A stretch of 64,000 nt of DNA from Escherichia phage vB_Eco_mar003J3. The notes under the pieces were generated by a model that was not told the DNA's origin, searched no databases, and saw nothing but the letters and a program-made list of their open reading frames with translations. This document shows positions 1-7,649 of the stretch, piece by piece; positions within the stretch are counted from its first letter, which is position 1; the number at the start of each line of letters is the position of its first letter. A program made the position numbers and the translations under genes. The stretch is taken from the sequence record NC_048203.1; one strand, 5' to 3'.

Positions 1-302
1 ACCACCACGTCTTAGAGTTTTGTCGATTATGAACGCTTGAGATCTTCGCCTCATTAAAGTGCTTCAAAAGCATATAATCAGCCCCTAATTGCTCAAGTGG
101 AATGTGATCTCCACTAGAATCATAAACATAAGGCCGTTGATTAGCTCTGTAGTGATATACCTTATTAATCCGGCGTTTAAGCAAAGGACTAGTACAGTAT
201 ATAAAGAAGTTTTTAGGATGCATCAGCATCTCCTTCAAAATTGGTGCACCCCGTTGGTAACGATCCAACCTCTCAAGCTCTTCAGGCAAGCGCTAATCCA
301 TC

Positions 303-866
303 TCAGCTAAAGGTGCAAATATTTTTAGGGTCTCCCCCAAGAGCCTTATATCTCTTTCGGAGTCCATTATCAGATAGTCCAAGTTCTCTTGAAGCTATAG
401 CCCAGGAGAAGTTTCGTACCCAATACTCTATATCTTCTTTTGTAATATCTCTATTCTTAATCCTAGCCGAAGCAGTACACTTTAAGCAGGCTTTTGAGGA
501 TTTATGCTTAGTATCACCACAAATAGGACAAACATCCGTTCTTCTACTAATATTGTTATCAGAACATGTTTTTATTACGTGCTCTTCTTTACTAAGAACT
601 TGTAGGTTGCTTAGTTCAAAATTTGCCGGATTTCTATCTTTATGGTCTACTTCTTTAGAGGAATAAAGATCTTCTAAATCTTTAAATACTCTGCATAATA
701 GTCTAGATATTAAAAGAGTATGCTCAACACCATTTTTACTTAGCTTAACACATGGATAACCTTTATTGTTAAGATAAGTAGCTATTTCTCTGTTAACATG
801 CAATGAGTAAACTTTGCCTGTTTCAGAAATTTTATACATAGGAAATTCAGGTATTGTCTTAAACAT
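303..866 (-). CDS. HNH homing endonuclease
   Basis: 187 aa; HNH-like core VDHKDRNPANFELSNLQVL plus C-terminal Cys cluster CPICG...CLKC. Confidence 0.7.
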   Translation of the reverse strand: MFKTIPEFPMYKISETGKVYSLHVNREIATYLNNKGYPCVKLSKNGVEHTLLISRLLCRVFKDLEDLYSSKEVDHKDRNPANFELSNLQVLSKEEHVIKTCSDNNISRRTDVCPICGDTKHKSSKACLKCTASARIKNRDITKEDIEYWVRNFSWAIASRELGLSDNGLRKRYKALGGDPKNICTFS

Positions 867-960: not shown

Positions 961-1035
961 TGGCACACCCACGGAGAATTGAACTCCGATTCTCAGATTG
1001 AAATCCTGATGTCCTAACCATTAGACGATAGGTGC
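961..1035 (-). tRNA. tRNA, anticodon TTC (Glu) by manual fold
   Basis: 75 nt cloverleaf; acceptor GCACCTA/TGGGTGT, D stem GTCT/GGAC, anticodon loop ATTTCAA, T-arm CGGAG-TTCAATT-CTCCG, encoded CCA. Confidence 0.6.
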
Positions 1036-1044
1036 ATTAAATTT

Positions 1045-1126
1045 GGTGGGGGATGGAGGACTCGAACCTCCGCGTGATATACCCGGTCTACAGCCAGGCG
1101 CCGTCGCCACTGAGCCAATCCCCCAT
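1045..1126 (-). tRNA. tRNA-Tyr (anticodon GTA)
   Basis: Acceptor GGGGGAT/ATCCCCC perfect, anticodon stem CCTGG/CCGGG with loop CTGTAGA, extended variable region, T-arm GGAGG-TTCGAGT-CCTCC, CCA. Confidence 0.7.
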
Positions 1127-1248
1127 ATTTGAATGAAAAGTAAGTCGGTTAAACTCAAGGTGGAATATTTCAGGATTTCCTGACTTTACCCCTAAAAGCA
1201 ACTCGCTTAATTACTTCTCATTCAGATATGTTTCCAAATTAGATAAAT

Positions 1249-1278
1249 ATTATATCAAGTTTTAAGGCACTTGAGCAA
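1249..1278 (-). promoter_or_regulatory. sigma70-like promoter (-35 TTGCTC, 18-bp spacer, -10 TATAAT)
   Basis: Read on minus strand; lies upstream of the minus-strand tRNA pair. Confidence 0.4.
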
Positions 1279-1314
1279 GTCAAACTTTAAAGAACTTGCT
1301 CAGTGCTGTATCAG

Positions 1315-1590
1315 TTAATCAAATGAAGGAGTGACTTTCAAAGTGAATGGAAGTTCGAATACCTCTTCACCTTCATCAGTAACAGTGACTACTCGACCCT
1401 CTAGCTTATTCATGCTGATTTCAACATCAGCCGTAGCATCAGGAGCCATACCAGCTTCAACACATTTAGCTTTAATTTCCGGCAGAAGTTCTACATCATA
1501 GAAATAAAGCCATTCAATCTCACCTTCCCAGCCTTCCCAGGATTTACAGATTGCACTTTCAATACCAGTTGTTATAACACGATTTTGCAT
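1315..1590 (-). CDS. hypothetical protein (91 aa)
   Basis: ORF preceded by promoter-like element at 1621-1650. Confidence 0.5.
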   Translation of the reverse strand: MQNRVITTGIESAICKSWEGWEGEIEWLYFYDVELLPEIKAKCVEAGMAPDATADVEISMNKLEGRVVTVTDEGEEVFELPFTLKVTPSFD

Positions 1591-1620
1591 TCGTTAACTC
1601 CTTCATCAATTTATATAACT

Positions 1621-1650
1621 ATTATAACAGAAATCTTAAGTAAAAAGCAA
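1621..1650 (-). promoter_or_regulatory. sigma70-like promoter (-35 TTGCTT, 18-bp spacer, -10 TATAAT)
   Basis: Minus-strand reading of aagcaa ... attata. Confidence 0.45.
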
Positions 1651-1680
1651 GTACATTTTTAAAATTTCTGCTTGGAGGAG

Positions 1681-1953
1681 TTAAACTCCTGATTCTTCAG
1701 CCAGATCAAGCCCAACCAACGTGATTGCCATAATAGCCGCGCCATGTTCCTTCTCTCCTAGCTCTTTAGCTTGAGTGAGAATATTGAGGAATTGCTTTTG
1801 AAAATCTGTAACTTCTTCTGTCATGCCTGCTTCAGCAATAATTCCTTTCAGCATAAAGCGTTGTGCCGTAATTTCAGGATTAGCCATTTGTTTTCTCCAG
1901 TTATTTAGAATGTAAGCCAAACTTAGGATCATAGCGATCATAAGTCGTACCAT
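1681..1953 (-). CDS. hypothetical protein (90 aa)
   Basis: ORF only. Confidence 0.4.
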   Translation of the reverse strand: MVRLMIAMILSLAYILNNWRKQMANPEITAQRFMLKGIIAEAGMTEEVTDFQKQFLNILTQAKELGEKEHGAAIMAITLVGLDLAEESGV

Positions 1954-2038
1954 TAGTTGAAGTCTTGATGCTATGAAAACGACAGTACATAAATTTACGT
2001 AGTGCTTTCTTAATAGCTTTCATTTTATTTCCTTAATT

Positions 2039-2115
2039 TGGTAGGGGTGGTGGGATTCGAACCCACAAAACCTGAATTTTAAGTCCAGTACCTATGCCAA
2101 TTCGATTACACCCCC
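2039..2115 (-). tRNA. tRNA, anticodon TAA (Leu-type) in a short-variable-arm scaffold
   Basis: 77 nt; acceptor GGGGGTG/CACCCCT, discriminator A, CCA, anticodon stem CTGGA/TTCAG with loop CTTAAAA, T-arm GTGGG-TTCGAAT-CCCAC; D stem weak. Confidence 0.55.
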
Positions 2116-2124
2116 ATGTAATCT

Positions 2125-2472
2125 TTAGAGTTCGTAACCCTGAATATATCGAGCAAAACCAGTAATCTCGAACTGAATTGCCCATGCTACTTCCATATGC
2201 TCAATCTTACTAAAATGAGCGTCAGACTGTTCTAGGAAATAACGAGAGATTATAGGGAACTCAATGTCAAAATCTTCCTTATCCATACCATAGAAGAAGT
2301 TTCCAGAAATATTACGAACTTCACGAAAGAAATCCTCAATCTGAAAATCCATCAGAGGATAAGTATATTCCTCTTTGCTATCATCCGTTTGGAAGAAGCG
2401 GAAATGCACAAGGCAAGAGCCAATCAGATTTACTGCTGGAGTAGTGTAAATATCCATGTTAACCTCGATCAA
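2125..2472 (-). CDS. hypothetical protein (115 aa)
   Basis: ORF, acidic. Confidence 0.45.
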   Translation of the reverse strand: MIEVNMDIYTTPAVNLIGSCLVHFRFFQTDDSKEEYTYPLMDFQIEDFFREVRNISGNFFYGMDKEDFDIEFPIISRYFLEQSDAHFSKIEHMEVAWAIQFEITGFARYIQGYEL

Positions 2473-2644
2473 TATCTAGAGAAATTCCAAATTCTGGATT
2501 AATACCAGAACCATTACATGCTGCGCATTCCCACTCTTCAAAACGCATATCGCCAGGTTCAGCATCATTAATAGTACCTGTTCCTTGGCAGTGAGTACAC
2601 ATGCACTCTTCTAGTTCTTGTTTAAGCTCTTGAAACTTAGACAT
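2459..2644 (-). CDS. small zinc-ribbon protein (DnaJ-type CxxCxGxG repeats)
   Basis: 61 aa; CTHCQGTG and CAACNGSG motifs. Confidence 0.5.
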   Translation of the reverse strand: MSKFQELKQELEECMCTHCQGTGTINDAEPGDMRFEEWECAACNGSGINPEFGISLDIDRG

Positions 2645-2661
2645 ATAGTCTCCTAGTTAAT

Positions 2662-2739
2662 TGGTGGCTCCCGGAGGATTCGAACCTACCTACCTTTCGC
2701 TTATGAGGCGACGGCTCATACCAAATGAGCTTGAGAACC
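2662..2739 (-). tRNA. tRNA, anticodon CAT (Met or Ile-lysidine)
   Basis: Acceptor GGTTCTC/GGGAGCC with two G-U pairs, D stem GCTC/GAGC, anticodon loop CTCATAA, TTCGAAT T-loop, CCA. Confidence 0.55.
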
Positions 2740-2744
2740 AAATT

Positions 2745-2833
2745 TGGAGGAAGAAGTGGGAATCGAACCCACAAGGCTATGTTTCAAACCGACAGATTAG
2801 CAATCTGCTGCAATACCGTTATGCTATTCTTCC
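2745..2833 (-). tRNA. tRNA-Ser (anticodon GCT), class II
   Basis: 89 nt; acceptor GGAAGAA/TTCTTCC perfect, anticodon stem GCAGA/TCTGT with loop TTGCTAA, long variable arm, T-arm GTGGG-TTCGATT-CCCAC, CCA. Confidence 0.7.
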
Positions 2834-7577: not shown

Positions 7578-7649
7578 TACCGACCGTAGGATTCGAACCT
7601 ACATCTTCCACCAGTTACGGCTTGATAATACCAATTATACTAGGACGGC
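7578..7649 (-). tRNA. tRNA-like gene, anticodon arm not resolvable (possible pseudo-tRNA)
   Basis: Acceptor GCCGTCC/GGTCGGT (one mismatch) and T-arm GTAGG-TTCGAAT-CCTAC clear; no 5-bp/7-nt anticodon arm found; no CCA. Confidence 0.4.

What the first reader, a model, noticed from the sequence alone, without database searches (positions are those of the whole stretch)
2039..2115. tRNA with UAA (Leu-type) anticodon in a short-variable-arm scaffold
My fold gives anticodon loop CTTAAAA (anticodon UAA, reading UUA/UUG) with discriminator A73 and encoded CCA, but only a 5-nt variable region and a weak D stem, whereas bacterial tRNA-Leu are normally class II with a long extra arm. Either the identity is unusual or the fold is wrong. 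Phage tRNAs that supplement rare codons are also candidate decoys or replacements when host tRNAs are cleaved by anticodon nucleases.
Basis: seen in the sequence. Interest (0 to 1): 0.4.

Follow-up and report, generated by a model that had tools for sequence, protein, structure and literature searches.

The report
Short-armed leucine tRNA of T5-like phage
This is a real phage leucine tRNA that lacks the long side-arm bacterial leucine tRNAs normally carry; that shape turns out to be common among phage leucine tRNAs and fits what the charging enzyme is known to require.

Summary
Window 2039-2115 (minus strand) encodes a 77-nt tRNA with anticodon UAA, A73, encoded CCA, a 5-nt variable region and a 3-bp D stem (ARAGORN; Rfam 57.4 bits). 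The window is a T5-like phage, and the gene is 100% identical in about 290 phage records.

The fold is not wrong and the identity is probably not unusual. The tRNA carries every published positive determinant for E. coli LeuRS: A73, A15:U48, G18G19, A20a and the T-loop partners. LeuRS does not need the long arm.

T5-like phages carry a second short tRNA-Leu (UAG). Their Ser and Tyr tRNAs keep long arms. UUA and CUA are the Leu codons enriched in the phage.

The shape is widespread. In an arm-length-neutral scan, 29 of 128 viral tRNA-Leu were short-armed, against 8 of 118 in cellular genomes; six of those eight are in Actinobacteria. Covariation across 121 sequences supports the cloverleaf.

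Charging with leucine is inferred, not shown. Why the arm was lost is open: relaxed constraint, or evasion of nucleases that read the variable arm. Verdict: a new member of the known "type I tRNA-Leu" kind, of moderate interest.

The parts
2039..2115 (-). tRNA-Leu(UAA), 77 nt, class I (short variable region), CCA encoded
   Evidence: ARAGORN. Rfam RF00005 57.4 bits. 100% identical in about 290 T5-like phage records annotated tRNA-Leu.
2109..2115 (-). Acceptor stem 5' strand, nt 1-7 (GGGGGUG). G1 forms a G.U wobble with U72; G2-C71.
   Evidence: Parse. G1.U72 occurs in 34-38% of viral tRNA-Leu against 10-12% of cellular ones.
2090..2106 (-). D arm: a 3-bp stem (A10-U25, U11.G24, C12-G23), a G13.A22 mismatch, and the 9-nt loop A14 A15 U16 U17 G18 G19 C20 A20a U21
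   Evidence: This is the same architecture as all five E. coli tRNA-Leu. The 13:22 position is unpaired in 96% of 120 short-arm Leu sequences.
2072..2088 (-). Anticodon stem-loop CUGGA-CUUAAAA-UUCAG. The anticodon U34 A35 A36 lies at 2081-2079. The A36A37A38 motif is present.
   Evidence: The loop matches host leuZ (UUUAAAA) except at nt 32. A36A37A38 is the MiaA/TrmL determinant, and TrmL is indifferent to the variable arm.
2067..2071 (-). Variable region GUUUU (5 nt). U48 is the partner of A15 in the Levitt pair.
   Evidence: The alignment with the long-arm tRNA-Leu of phage 201phi2-1 shows a clean 10-nt gap here.
2050..2066 (-). T arm GUGGG-UUCGAAU-CCCAC (U54, U55, C56 and A58 present)
2039..2049 (-). 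Acceptor 3' strand (2043-2049), discriminator A73 (2042), CCA (2039-2041)
   Evidence: A73 is found in 118 of 118 short-arm Leu-anticodon tRNAs although it lay outside the search pattern.
1901..2023 (-). Context: a small ORF. Its Shine-Dalgarno sequence (AAGGA) starts 4 nt after the tRNA's CCA and its ATG is at 2023.
   Evidence: The arrangement is the same in phage Bas32. It implies co-transcription with mRNA and processing out of a polycistronic transcript (inference).
2125..2472 (-). Context: an upstream ORF whose stop codon ends 9 nt before tRNA nt 1
961..2833 (-). Context: the local tRNA cluster on the same strand. Glu 961-1035, Tyr 1044-1124 (81 nt, arm kept but short), Leu 2039-2115, Met 2662-2739, Ser 2745-2833 (89 nt, long arm kept).

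Best explanation
The gene is a functional phage-encoded tRNA-Leu(UAA) that reads UUA (and UUG) and is charged with leucine by the host LeuRS.

It descends from an ordinary long-arm tRNA-Leu that lost the variable-arm hairpin. It kept everything bacterial LeuRS is known to read: A73, the A15:U48 Levitt pair, G18G19 and A20a in a 9-nt D loop on a 3-bp D stem, and the T-loop partners.

The arm could be lost because LeuRS does not use it. SerRS, and in part TyrRS, do use theirs, so phage Ser and Tyr tRNAs keep their arms.

Together with its short-arm paralogue tRNA-Leu(UAG), it supplies decoding of the A-ending Leu codons that the AT-rich phage uses more than its host.

Shown: the gene, the fold, the conservation, the presence of the identity elements, the codon bias, and how widespread the architecture is. 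Inferred: leucylation, modification by MiaA/TrmL/MnmEG, and use in translation.
For: Fold and gene
- ARAGORN and Rfam both call it.
- Across 121 short-arm Leu sequences, 93.9% of stem cells are paired against 55.9% in shuffles (0 of 500 shuffles reach it). The covariation score is 1.006 against 0.236, and all slid registers give 35-47%.

Identity
- The E. coli LeuRS set is A73, A15-U48, G18G19, A20a, G18:U55, G19-C56 and U54:A58. The anticodon and the long arm are not required, and minimal tRNALeu lacking both arms is still charged (Giege & Eriani 2023).
- All of these elements are present in the sequence.
- Among 28 E. coli tRNAs covering all 20 isotypes, only the 5 Leu share the combination [9-nt D loop, R13.A22, A15:U48, A73].
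- Among the 25 tRNAs of a complete T5-like set, only the two Leu have it together with A20a.

Selection
- The gene is 100% identical in 290 of 325 records, while the flanks are about 85-97% identical.

Descent
- It is 79% identical to the long-arm tRNA-Leu(UAA) of phage 201phi2-1, with one clean 10-nt gap at the arm.

Specificity of the loss
- In 1.09 Mb of viral loci, Ser is long in 83 of 84 genes and Tyr in 39 of 40, while 173 of 223 Leu are short.

Generality
- 29 of 128 viral tRNA-Leu are short-armed, against 8 of 118 cellular ones; Fisher p=5.7e-4.
- All carry Leu anticodons and A73.
- Cultured phages of Enterobacteria, Vibrio, Bacillus, Lactobacillus, Prochlorococcus, Rhizobium, Myxococcus and Rhodococcus carry them.

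Codon match
- UUA is 24% and CUA 18% of phage Leu codons, against 15% and 4% in the host sample.

Modification
- The A36A37A38 loop is kept, and TrmL ignores the variable arm.
Against: - No aminoacylation or tRNA-seq data for this tRNA could be reached. The classical T5 papers are not held and the supplements were absent.
- Fan et al. 2019 state that E. coli LeuRS 'only charges type II tRNALeu', having tested it on the Streptomyces type I species. Efficient charging of a short-arm Leu by enterobacterial LeuRS is therefore not guaranteed.
- In nearest-neighbour energetics the cloverleaf is 3.8 kcal/mol worse than an alternative fold, whereas host leuZ folds as a cloverleaf.
- The D-arm/Levitt signature is not Leu-exclusive among phage tRNAs. 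A control scan found it in phage His, Gln, Asn, Lys and Glu tRNAs, so D-arm resemblance alone does not prove Leu ancestry.
- Overall stem identity to E. coli Leu is only 54-60%.
Confidence: 0.85

Rival explanations
1. Arm loss is an anti-defence adaptation, not merely tolerated decay. By lacking the long variable arm, the phage tRNA-Leu escapes host or competitor nucleases that recognise or cut class II tRNAs through that arm. Leu decoding would then survive when host tRNA-Leu is destroyed. This concerns why the shape exists and is compatible with the tRNA being a normal Leu decoder.
For: - There is a precedent in the same phage-host system. Retron-Eco7 PtuAB cuts E. coli tRNA-Tyr inside its variable loop (U47/C48), and T5-like SP15 escapes through a tRNA-Tyr with an altered variable loop.
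- Short-arm Leu is enriched in viruses relative to cells.
- T5-like phages carry two short-arm Leu species (UAA + UAG) that could together cover the Leu codons.
- T5 tRNAs are proven counter-defence factors for Lys, Thr, Asn and Tyr.
Against: - No bacterial nuclease directed at tRNA-Leu or at its variable arm was found in the papers read.
- The gradient of arm loss in the unselected loci (Leu about 23% by the arm-neutral scan; Tyr 2/16 and Ser 0/36) follows the known dependence of each synthetase on the arm. Relaxed constraint alone predicts this.
- Some Actinobacteria carry short-arm tRNA-Leu(UAA) as apparently native genes.
Confidence: 0.12
2. The tRNA is charged with an amino acid other than leucine, most plausibly Phe because A35, A36 and A73 are PheRS determinants. 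UUA/UUG would then be partly recoded.
For: - The class I body, A35-A36 and A73 overlap the E. coli PheRS determinant list (G34, A35, A36, U20, U59).
- LeuRS charging of type I substrates by the E. coli enzyme has been questioned.
Against: - G34, U20 and U59 are all absent; the tRNA has U34, C20 and A59.
- No tRNA with a GAA anticodon shares this architecture among 128 viral short-arm sequences.
- The phage has its own tRNA-Phe(GAA).
- UUA makes up 24% of Leu codons in phage ORFs, so recoding would be proteome-wide.
- The same scaffold carries all six Leu anticodons, always with A73.
Confidence: 0.03
3. The RNA has a non-translational role (a nuclease decoy or inhibitor, or a processing signal for the surrounding polycistronic mRNA), or it is a decaying gene.
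For: - It is embedded tightly between small ORFs: a stop codon 9 nt upstream and a Shine-Dalgarno sequence 4 nt downstream.
- Its predicted cloverleaf stability is weak.
- Authors of the AriB study raise the possibility that overexpressed viral tRNAs act as nuclease inhibitors.
Against: - Perfect conservation covers all functional tRNA positions, including the anticodon loop, A73 and CCA, in about 290 genomes.
- The anticodon matches a codon class enriched in the phage.
- The one clearly broken copy found (the APCEc03 mosaic) shows what decay looks like, and it is rare.
Confidence: 0.04
4. The cloverleaf or anticodon assignment is wrong and the gene is a different isotype.
For: The MFE structure is not a cloverleaf.
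Against: Two independent tRNA predictors agree. The covariation evidence is strong. The 7-nt loop with U33 and a purine at 37 is canonical.
Confidence: 0.01

Closest known systems
E. coli tRNA-Leu5 (leuZ, anticodon UAA) and the other four E. coli tRNA-Leu isoacceptors
   Same: - Anticodon UAA and an A36A37A38 loop.
- A73, U8:A14 and A15:U48.
- A 9-nt D loop A-A-U-Y-G-G-Y-A-N on a 3-bp D stem with a purine13.A22 mismatch.
- T-loop U54, U55, C56 and A58.
   Different: - A 5-nt variable region instead of a 13-15-nt arm.
- U21 instead of G21, A9 instead of G9, G1.U72 instead of G1-C72.
- G2-C71 instead of C2-G71, which is the anti-SerRS element.
- C32 instead of U32, and A59 instead of G59.
- 60% identity overall.
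Streptomyces coelicolor type I tRNALeu(CAA) (Fan et al. 2019, NAR, PMC6614811)
   Same: A natural bacterial-system tRNA-Leu with a 5-nt variable loop. It coexists with long-arm tRNA-Leu and is charged by a single LeuRS.
   Different: - The Streptomyces variable loop is ACAGC, ending in C48 rather than U48.
- ScoLeuRS uses C74 rather than A73 and needs its own LSD (leucine-specific domain) to accept type I.
- E. coli LeuRS did not charge it.
- The phage gene has to work with enterobacterial LeuRS. Its sequence relationship to the Streptomyces gene was not tested.
Short-arm tRNA-Leu(UAA) genes of Actinobacteria found here (Nocardioides, Gordonia, Arcanobacterium, Herbiconiux)
   Same: Anticodon UAA, a 5-nt variable region ending in U48, A15, A73, a 9-nt D loop and a 3-bp D stem.
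   Different: C13.A22 and G21 instead of G13.A22 and U21. No encoded CCA. They are cellular genes. This is probably a separate origin from the T5 type.
Long-arm tRNA-Leu(UAA) of Pseudomonas phage 201phi2-1
   Same: 79% identity over all 77 positions. The D arm is nearly identical, including U21 and G13.A22. The anticodon loop is the same.
   Different: It has the 10-nt-longer variable arm (87 nt in all). It shows what the T5-type gene probably looked like before the deletion.
Animal mitochondrial tRNA-Leu(UUR)
   Same: A type I tRNA-Leu with anticodon UAA. Its identity is set by A73 and A14 without a long arm.
   Different: It is charged by a dedicated mitochondrial LeuRS. It has a floppy, mismatch-rich anticodon stem and different D/T loops. 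No sequence relationship is implied.
Engineered E. coli tRNALeu variants lacking the variable arm (Asahara 1998; Larkin 2002; the TrmL 'VLAD' mutant)
   Same: They show experimentally that E. coli LeuRS and TrmL tolerate removal of the arm. The phage gene is a natural counterpart.
   Different: They are laboratory constructs on the host tRNA body. Their kinetics are not transferable to this sequence.

Membership tests
tRNA (Rfam RF00005) | Cloverleaf with 7/(3-4)/5/5-bp stems, a 7-nt anticodon loop with U33, a T-loop with the UUCRANY motif, and a score above the gathering threshold | tested here: met
   57.4 bits against 29. ARAGORN call. Covariation in 121 sequences.
E. coli-type tRNA-Leu (substrate of bacterial LeuRS) | Discriminator A73 | tested here: met
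   A at window 2042. Found in 118 of 118 viral short-arm Leu although it lay outside the search pattern.
E. coli-type tRNA-Leu (substrate of bacterial LeuRS) | Trans-Levitt pair A15:U48 | tested here: met
   A15 and U48 are present.
E. coli-type tRNA-Leu (substrate of bacterial LeuRS) | G18G19 at the Leu-specific position and A20a in a 9-nt D loop; U8:A14 | tested here: met
   The loop AAUUGGCAU is in the same register as E. coli AAUYGGUAG. A20a and U8/A14 are present.
E. coli-type tRNA-Leu (substrate of bacterial LeuRS) | D/T-loop tertiary partners G18:U55, G19-C56, U54:A58 | tested here: met
   The T loop UUCGAAU supplies U54, U55, C56 and A58. Formation of the pairs themselves is inferred.
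E. coli-type tRNA-Leu (substrate of bacterial LeuRS) | Long variable arm (the class II hallmark; not an identity determinant for E. coli LeuRS) | tested here: not met
   The variable region is 5 nt, with a 10-nt gap against the long-arm relatives.
E. coli-type tRNA-Leu (substrate of bacterial LeuRS) | Actual leucylation by host LeuRS | not testable with these tools
   No accessible biochemical or tRNA-seq data. A secondary source lists a tRNA-Leu among the T5 tRNAs.
Type I (short-arm) tRNA-Leu | A Leu anticodon on a scaffold with a 4-5-nt variable region and a canonical cloverleaf | tested here: met
Type I (short-arm) tRNA-Leu | Coexistence with type II tRNA-Leu under a single LeuRS | tested here: inconclusive
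   Host E. coli has only long-arm Leu and the phage has only short-arm Leu, so the two classes coexist during infection. That T5-like phages encode no LeuRS rests on my recollection of T5 annotation; I did not test it here.
Nuclease-resistant or decoy phage tRNA (as T5 tRNA-Lys vs PARIS, tRNA-Tyr vs Eco7) | The host counterpart is cleaved by a defined defence nuclease, and the phage copy differs at the recognition or cleavage site | not tested
   No tRNA-Leu-directed nuclease was reported in the papers read. The anticodon loop differs from leuZ only at nt 32, while the whole variable arm differs.
Suppressor or recoding tRNA | An anticodon complementary to a stop codon | tested here: not met
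   The anticodon is 5'-UAA-3' and reads UUA/UUG, not a stop codon.

The most novel reading that the evidence does not exclude
Loss of the long variable arm from phage tRNA-Leu is a recurrent counter-defence adaptation. It would remove the handle or cut site used by as yet unidentified bacterial nucleases that target class II tRNAs through the variable arm. The precedents are PtuAB cutting tRNA-Tyr in its variable loop and human SLFN11 acting on tRNA-Leu-TAA. T5-like phages would then keep all leucine decoding going with two arm-less tRNAs when host tRNA-Leu is destroyed.
Probability: 0.12. Interest if true: 0.75.

Novelty: new member of a known kind. Interest (0 to 1): 0.4.

Why it matters
Textbooks and recent primary literature treat bacterial tRNA-Leu as class II. 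Fan et al. 2019 present Streptomyces as the first case of one LeuRS serving both classes in a single cell, and state that E. coli LeuRS accepts only type II.

If the T5-family genes are charged, every T5-like infection of E. coli or Salmonella is a second such case, in the best-studied system and with a different solution: the host identity set is retained and only the arm is removed.

Three patterns together form a natural experiment on which parts of a tRNA are held by the synthetase and which by something else:
- About one in five phage tRNA-Leu genes sampled are short-armed.
- Phage Ser tRNAs essentially never lose the arm, and phage Tyr tRNAs seldom do.
- Cellular genomes outside Actinobacteria did not show short-armed Leu in my sample.

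This also raises a testable question: why do cells keep an arm that LeuRS does not need while phages discard it?

In practice, annotation pipelines already call these genes tRNA-Leu, so no re-annotation is needed.

Tried and rejected
- blastn of the tRNA against 5,426 E. coli genomes found only a 23-nt T-arm match on plasmids. It is too insensitive for tRNA relationships.
- Percent identity over the fixed stem positions to 28 E. coli tRNAs did not single out Leu: 0.54 to Leu against 0.65 to Tyr, Trp and His. I dropped it as an isotype test in favour of the identity positions.
- I first took the D-arm/A15:U48 signature to be Leu-specific. A control scan with nt35 other than A showed that phage His, Gln, Asn, Lys, Glu and Cys tRNAs share it. 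The claim is now limited to the tRNA sets of E. coli and of a T5-like phage.
- Thermodynamic folding does not recover the cloverleaf. It cannot be used as support and is reported as a caveat.
- G1.U72 looked like a short-arm feature but is equally common in viral long-arm Leu, p=0.59.
- The promoter and terminator scan near the gene found nothing above shuffles.
- Literature: Scherberg & Weiss 1970 and the other classical T5 tRNA papers are not held. The supplements of the two recent T5 tRNA-seq papers are not held. Searches for any statement that phage or T5 tRNA-Leu lacks the extra arm found none in the held library. A 2008 survey notes only that some Leu, Ser and Tyr tRNAs in the Bayreuth database have short arms.
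I added U8.

Full report
**1. What is there**

ARAGORN finds six tRNA genes in the window, all on the minus strand. One is tRNA-Leu(taa) at 2039-2115, 77 nt. Rfam's tRNA model scores it 57.4 bits against a gathering score of 29, and aligns it with a 5-nt variable region. Read off the sequence it is:

GGGGGUG UA AUCG AAUUGGCAU AGGU A CUGGA CUUAAAA UUCAG GUUUU GUGGG UUCGAAU CCCAC CACCCCU A CCA

- anticodon loop CUUAAAA
- anticodon UAA
- A73
- encoded CCA
- a 5-nt variable region
- a weak D stem

The D stem has three pairs, one of them U.G, followed by a G13.A22 mismatch. The weakness is measurable. The cloverleaf evaluates to -20.9 kcal/mol, whereas the MFE is a different fold at -24.7 (z=-1.2). 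Host leuZ folds as a cloverleaf at -36.6.

**2. Where it comes from**

The first 8 kb of the window match T5-like phages (Demerecviridae) of Salmonella and Escherichia at up to 96.7% identity. The 77-nt gene is 100% identical in 290 of 325 matching phage records and is annotated tRNA-Leu wherever tRNAs are annotated. Flanking DNA in the same family ranges from about 85% to 97% identity, so the gene is under strong purifying selection.

The few variants found have one or two substitutions: G43U plus C68U, A64U, and C20U. One record, APCEc03, is a broken mosaic of two paralogues.

A complete T5-like tRNA region (phage Bas32, locus L001) shows a second 77-nt tRNA-Leu with anticodon UAG. It has the same D arm and the same GUUUU variable region. 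That gene lies beyond the start of the window. In the same genomes tRNA-Ser (89-91 nt) and tRNA-Tyr (81-88 nt) keep an extra arm. A Vibrio phage of the same family also has a 77-nt tRNA-Leu(UAG).

**3. Is the fold right?**

I scanned IMG/VR with a fixed-length pattern. I aligned 118 of them, those with at least 6 of 7 acceptor-stem pairs, without gaps to the window gene and two relatives (alignment A1).

Counting the cloverleaf on A1 gives:
- 93.9% of cells paired, against 55.9% in shuffles (0 of 500 shuffles reach it).
- 974 doubly changed cells, against 268 in shuffles.
- A covariation score of 1.006, against 0.236 in shuffles.
- 35-47% paired in every slid register.

The 13:22 position is unpaired in 96% of sequences, so the 'weak' 3-bp D stem is a conserved feature and not an error.

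**4. Is the identity unusual?**

The published identity set for E. coli LeuRS is summarised by Giege & Eriani 2023. [quoted passage not shown] The anticodon is not read. [quoted passage not shown]

The window tRNA has every positive element. I fetched 28 E. coli K-12 tRNA genes covering all 20 isotypes and all five Leu isoacceptors and parsed them position by position. The combination [9-nt D loop AAUNGGYAN, purine13.A22, A15:U48, A73] occurs only in the five Leu and in the two phage genes. Within the 25 tRNAs of the T5-like set, only the two Leu have it. The nearest other gene, tRNA-Pro, has a paired 13:22 and U20a.

So inside an infected cell, the only tRNAs presenting the LeuRS set are host Leu and these two phage species.

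The anticodon loop keeps A36A37A38, the MiaA/TrmL determinant. [quoted passage not shown] Normal anticodon modification is therefore plausible, though inferred.

PheRS determinants G34, U20 and U59 are absent. No GAA anticodon occurs on this scaffold in the viral sample, although position 34 was left free.

**5. A correction to my own first reading**

It returned phage His, Gln, Asn, Lys, Glu and Cys tRNAs with the same D arm and A15:U48. Each has its own canonical discriminator: Gln G73 in 19/20, His C73 in 15/16, Asn G73 in 11/11, Lys A73 in 9/9.

The signature is therefore not Leu-exclusive among phage tRNAs. It supports identity only in the context of a given cell's tRNA set, and it does not prove Leu ancestry on its own.

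Ancestry is better supported by the alignment with the long-arm tRNA-Leu(UAA) of Pseudomonas phage 201phi2-1. That gene is 79% identical over all 77 positions, with a nearly identical D arm and one clean 10-nt gap exactly at the arm.

**6. How general is it?**

I used an arm-length-neutral pattern (U8 through C56, with a gap of 14-32) to sample 120 loci from IMG/VR and 120 from the GTDB species genomes. After cloverleaf validation:

| Sample | Variable region 5-6 nt | Variable region 9 nt or more | Short-arm fraction |
|---|---|---|---|
| Viral contigs | 29 | 99 | 22.7% |
| Cellular genomes | 8 | 110 | 6.8% |

The difference gives Fisher p=5.7e-4.

Six of the eight cellular cases are tRNA-Leu(UAA) genes of Actinobacteria: Nocardioides (three), Gordonia, Arcanobacterium and Herbiconiux. 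The other two sit side by side in a Planctomycetota MAG and look phage-derived. No short-arm Leu appeared in Proteobacteria, Firmicutes or Bacteroidota.

Viral loci carrying short-arm Leu have a median GC of 0.40, so most are not actinophages. Annotated phages carrying them infect Escherichia, Cronobacter and Klebsiella (the rV5-like phages 4MG, GAP31 and KB57), Providencia, Proteus, Vibrio, Prochlorococcus, Bacillus, Lactobacillus, Myxococcus, Rhizobium and Rhodococcus.

There are at least two subtypes. The T5 type has G13.A22 with U21, and G13.A22 is shared with long-arm Leu. The other type has C13.A22 with G21 and is shared with the actinobacterial genes. This suggests more than one origin.

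In the viral loci that carry short-arm Leu, Ser is long in 83 of 84 genes and Tyr in 39 of 40. In the unselected loci, Ser is short in 0 of 36 and Tyr in 2 of 16. This gradient mirrors how much each synthetase depends on the arm (plus established knowledge of SerRS and bacterial TyrRS).

**7. What it is for**

Phage ORFs in the window (GC 39.6%) use UUA for 24% and CUA for 18% of Leu codons. A sample of 18 E. coli genes gives 15% and 4%. The two phage anticodons, UAA and UAG, are the ones that read these A-ending codons. This fits classical codon supplementation.

The gene sits between small ORFs on the same strand. An upstream stop codon ends 9 nt before nt 1, and a Shine-Dalgarno sequence starts 4 nt after CCA. 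The tRNA must therefore be cut out of a polycistronic transcript (inference).

**8. What remains open**

Leucylation is inferred. Fan et al. 2019 report that E. coli LeuRS 'only charges type II tRNALeu', tested on the Streptomyces type I tRNALeu(CAA). That tRNA's variable loop ends in C48, and its own synthetase uses C74 rather than A73. It differs from the phage tRNA, which keeps the E. coli set, but the statement warns that efficiency cannot be assumed.

I could not reach the classical T5 aminoacylation papers or recent tRNA-seq supplements. A review lists tRNA-Leu among the T5 tRNAs.

Why the arm is lost is also open. Relaxed constraint explains the Leu > Tyr > Ser gradient. A defence-evasion reading has real precedents. 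PtuAB of retron Eco7 cuts E. coli tRNA-Tyr in its variable loop, and T5-like SP15 escapes through an altered loop. Human SLFN11 contacts the arm of tRNA-Leu-TAA and cleaves an arm-less version less well. However, no tRNA-Leu-directed bacterial nuclease appeared in what I read.

**9. Verdict**

The gene itself is long annotated. The new content is its placement: a natural short-arm tRNA-Leu that retains the enterobacterial LeuRS identity set, one of a large and apparently little-remarked population of such genes in phages. I file it as a new member of the known type I tRNA-Leu kind, with interest 0.4.

Noticed in passing
L001 10877-10959 (phage Bas32, outside the window): The T5-like tRNA-Asn is 83 nt and has a 13-nt variable region, GTCGAAAGACAAC, that can form a GUC-GAAA-GAC hairpin. 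A normally short-arm isotype has gained an arm, the inverse of the Leu case. T5 tRNA-Asn is one of the tRNAs needed to overcome PARIS/AriB.
   Followed up: partly
window 1044-1124 (-): The window's tRNA-Tyr is 81 nt with a variable region of only about 10 nt. It is a quite different allele from the 88-nt tRNA-Tyr of Bas32. Retron-Eco7 PtuAB cuts host tRNA-Tyr in the variable loop, and the SP15 phage tRNA-Tyr loop is needed for evasion. The two alleles may reflect that arms race.
   Followed up: partly
window 245-316 (-) and 7578-7649 (-): Rfam finds two further tRNA-like elements that ARAGORN does not call, at 33.4 and 35.5 bits. The first has a degenerate T loop (AUCGUUA) and lies where relatives have Trp/Phe. 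The second has an odd anticodon loop and corresponds to a gene ARAGORN calls 'Ser(act)' in Bas32, at L001 4138-4212. They may be pseudo-tRNAs or non-canonical tRNAs.
   Followed up: partly
L355 (Escherichia phage APCEc03, KR422353.1 1293-1369): This is a chimeric tRNA-Leu. Its 5' acceptor and D strand and its anticodon loop with the 3' anticodon-stem strand come from the UAA gene. Its 3' D-stem strand, 5' anticodon-stem strand, T arm and 3' acceptor strand come from the UAG gene, so the stems no longer pair. It looks like the scar of recombination between the two paralogous short-arm Leu genes, which would delete the roughly 4.9 kb of tRNA genes between them.
   Followed up: partly
L357-L476 (viral contigs, control scan): Many phage tRNAs for His, Gln, Asn, Lys, Glu and Cys share the 'Leu-type' D arm: a 9-nt AAUNGGYAN loop, a 13:22 mismatch and A15:U48. 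They include tRNA-Lys with A73. How the anticodon-blind LeuRS avoids leucylating such tRNA-Lys species is unexplained.
   Followed up: no
L015-L352 (viral and cellular tRNA-Leu samples): A G1.U72 wobble at the top of the acceptor stem, as in the window gene, occurs in 34-38% of viral tRNA-Leu of both arm classes but only 10-12% of cellular ones. C2-G71, the anti-SerRS element, drops from 95% in cellular long-arm Leu to 64% (long-arm) and 76% (short-arm) in viral Leu.
   Followed up: partly
L247, L263, L348, L266, L272, L312 (Actinobacteria): Six of roughly thirteen actinobacterial loci in the genome sample carry a short-arm tRNA-Leu(UAA) without an encoded CCA. Short-arm Leu in Actinobacteria therefore extends beyond the Streptomyces CAA species described by Fan et al. 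2019, and involves the bldA-type anticodon in other genera.
   Followed up: no
A1 / class I viral set: Among short-arm tRNA-Leu(UAG) genes, position 37 is A in 31 and G in 19. The T5-like UAG gene has A37, whereas E. coli CUN-reading Leu tRNAs have G37, which carries the m1G frameshift-preventing modification. The consequence for reading-frame maintenance is unknown.
   Followed up: no
window 303-866 (-): A 187-aa ORF lies between tRNA-Glu and the degenerate tRNA-like element at 245-316. Relatives annotate HNH homing endonucleases in this tRNA region. A homing-endonuclease insertion may have disrupted the local tRNA array.
   Followed up: no
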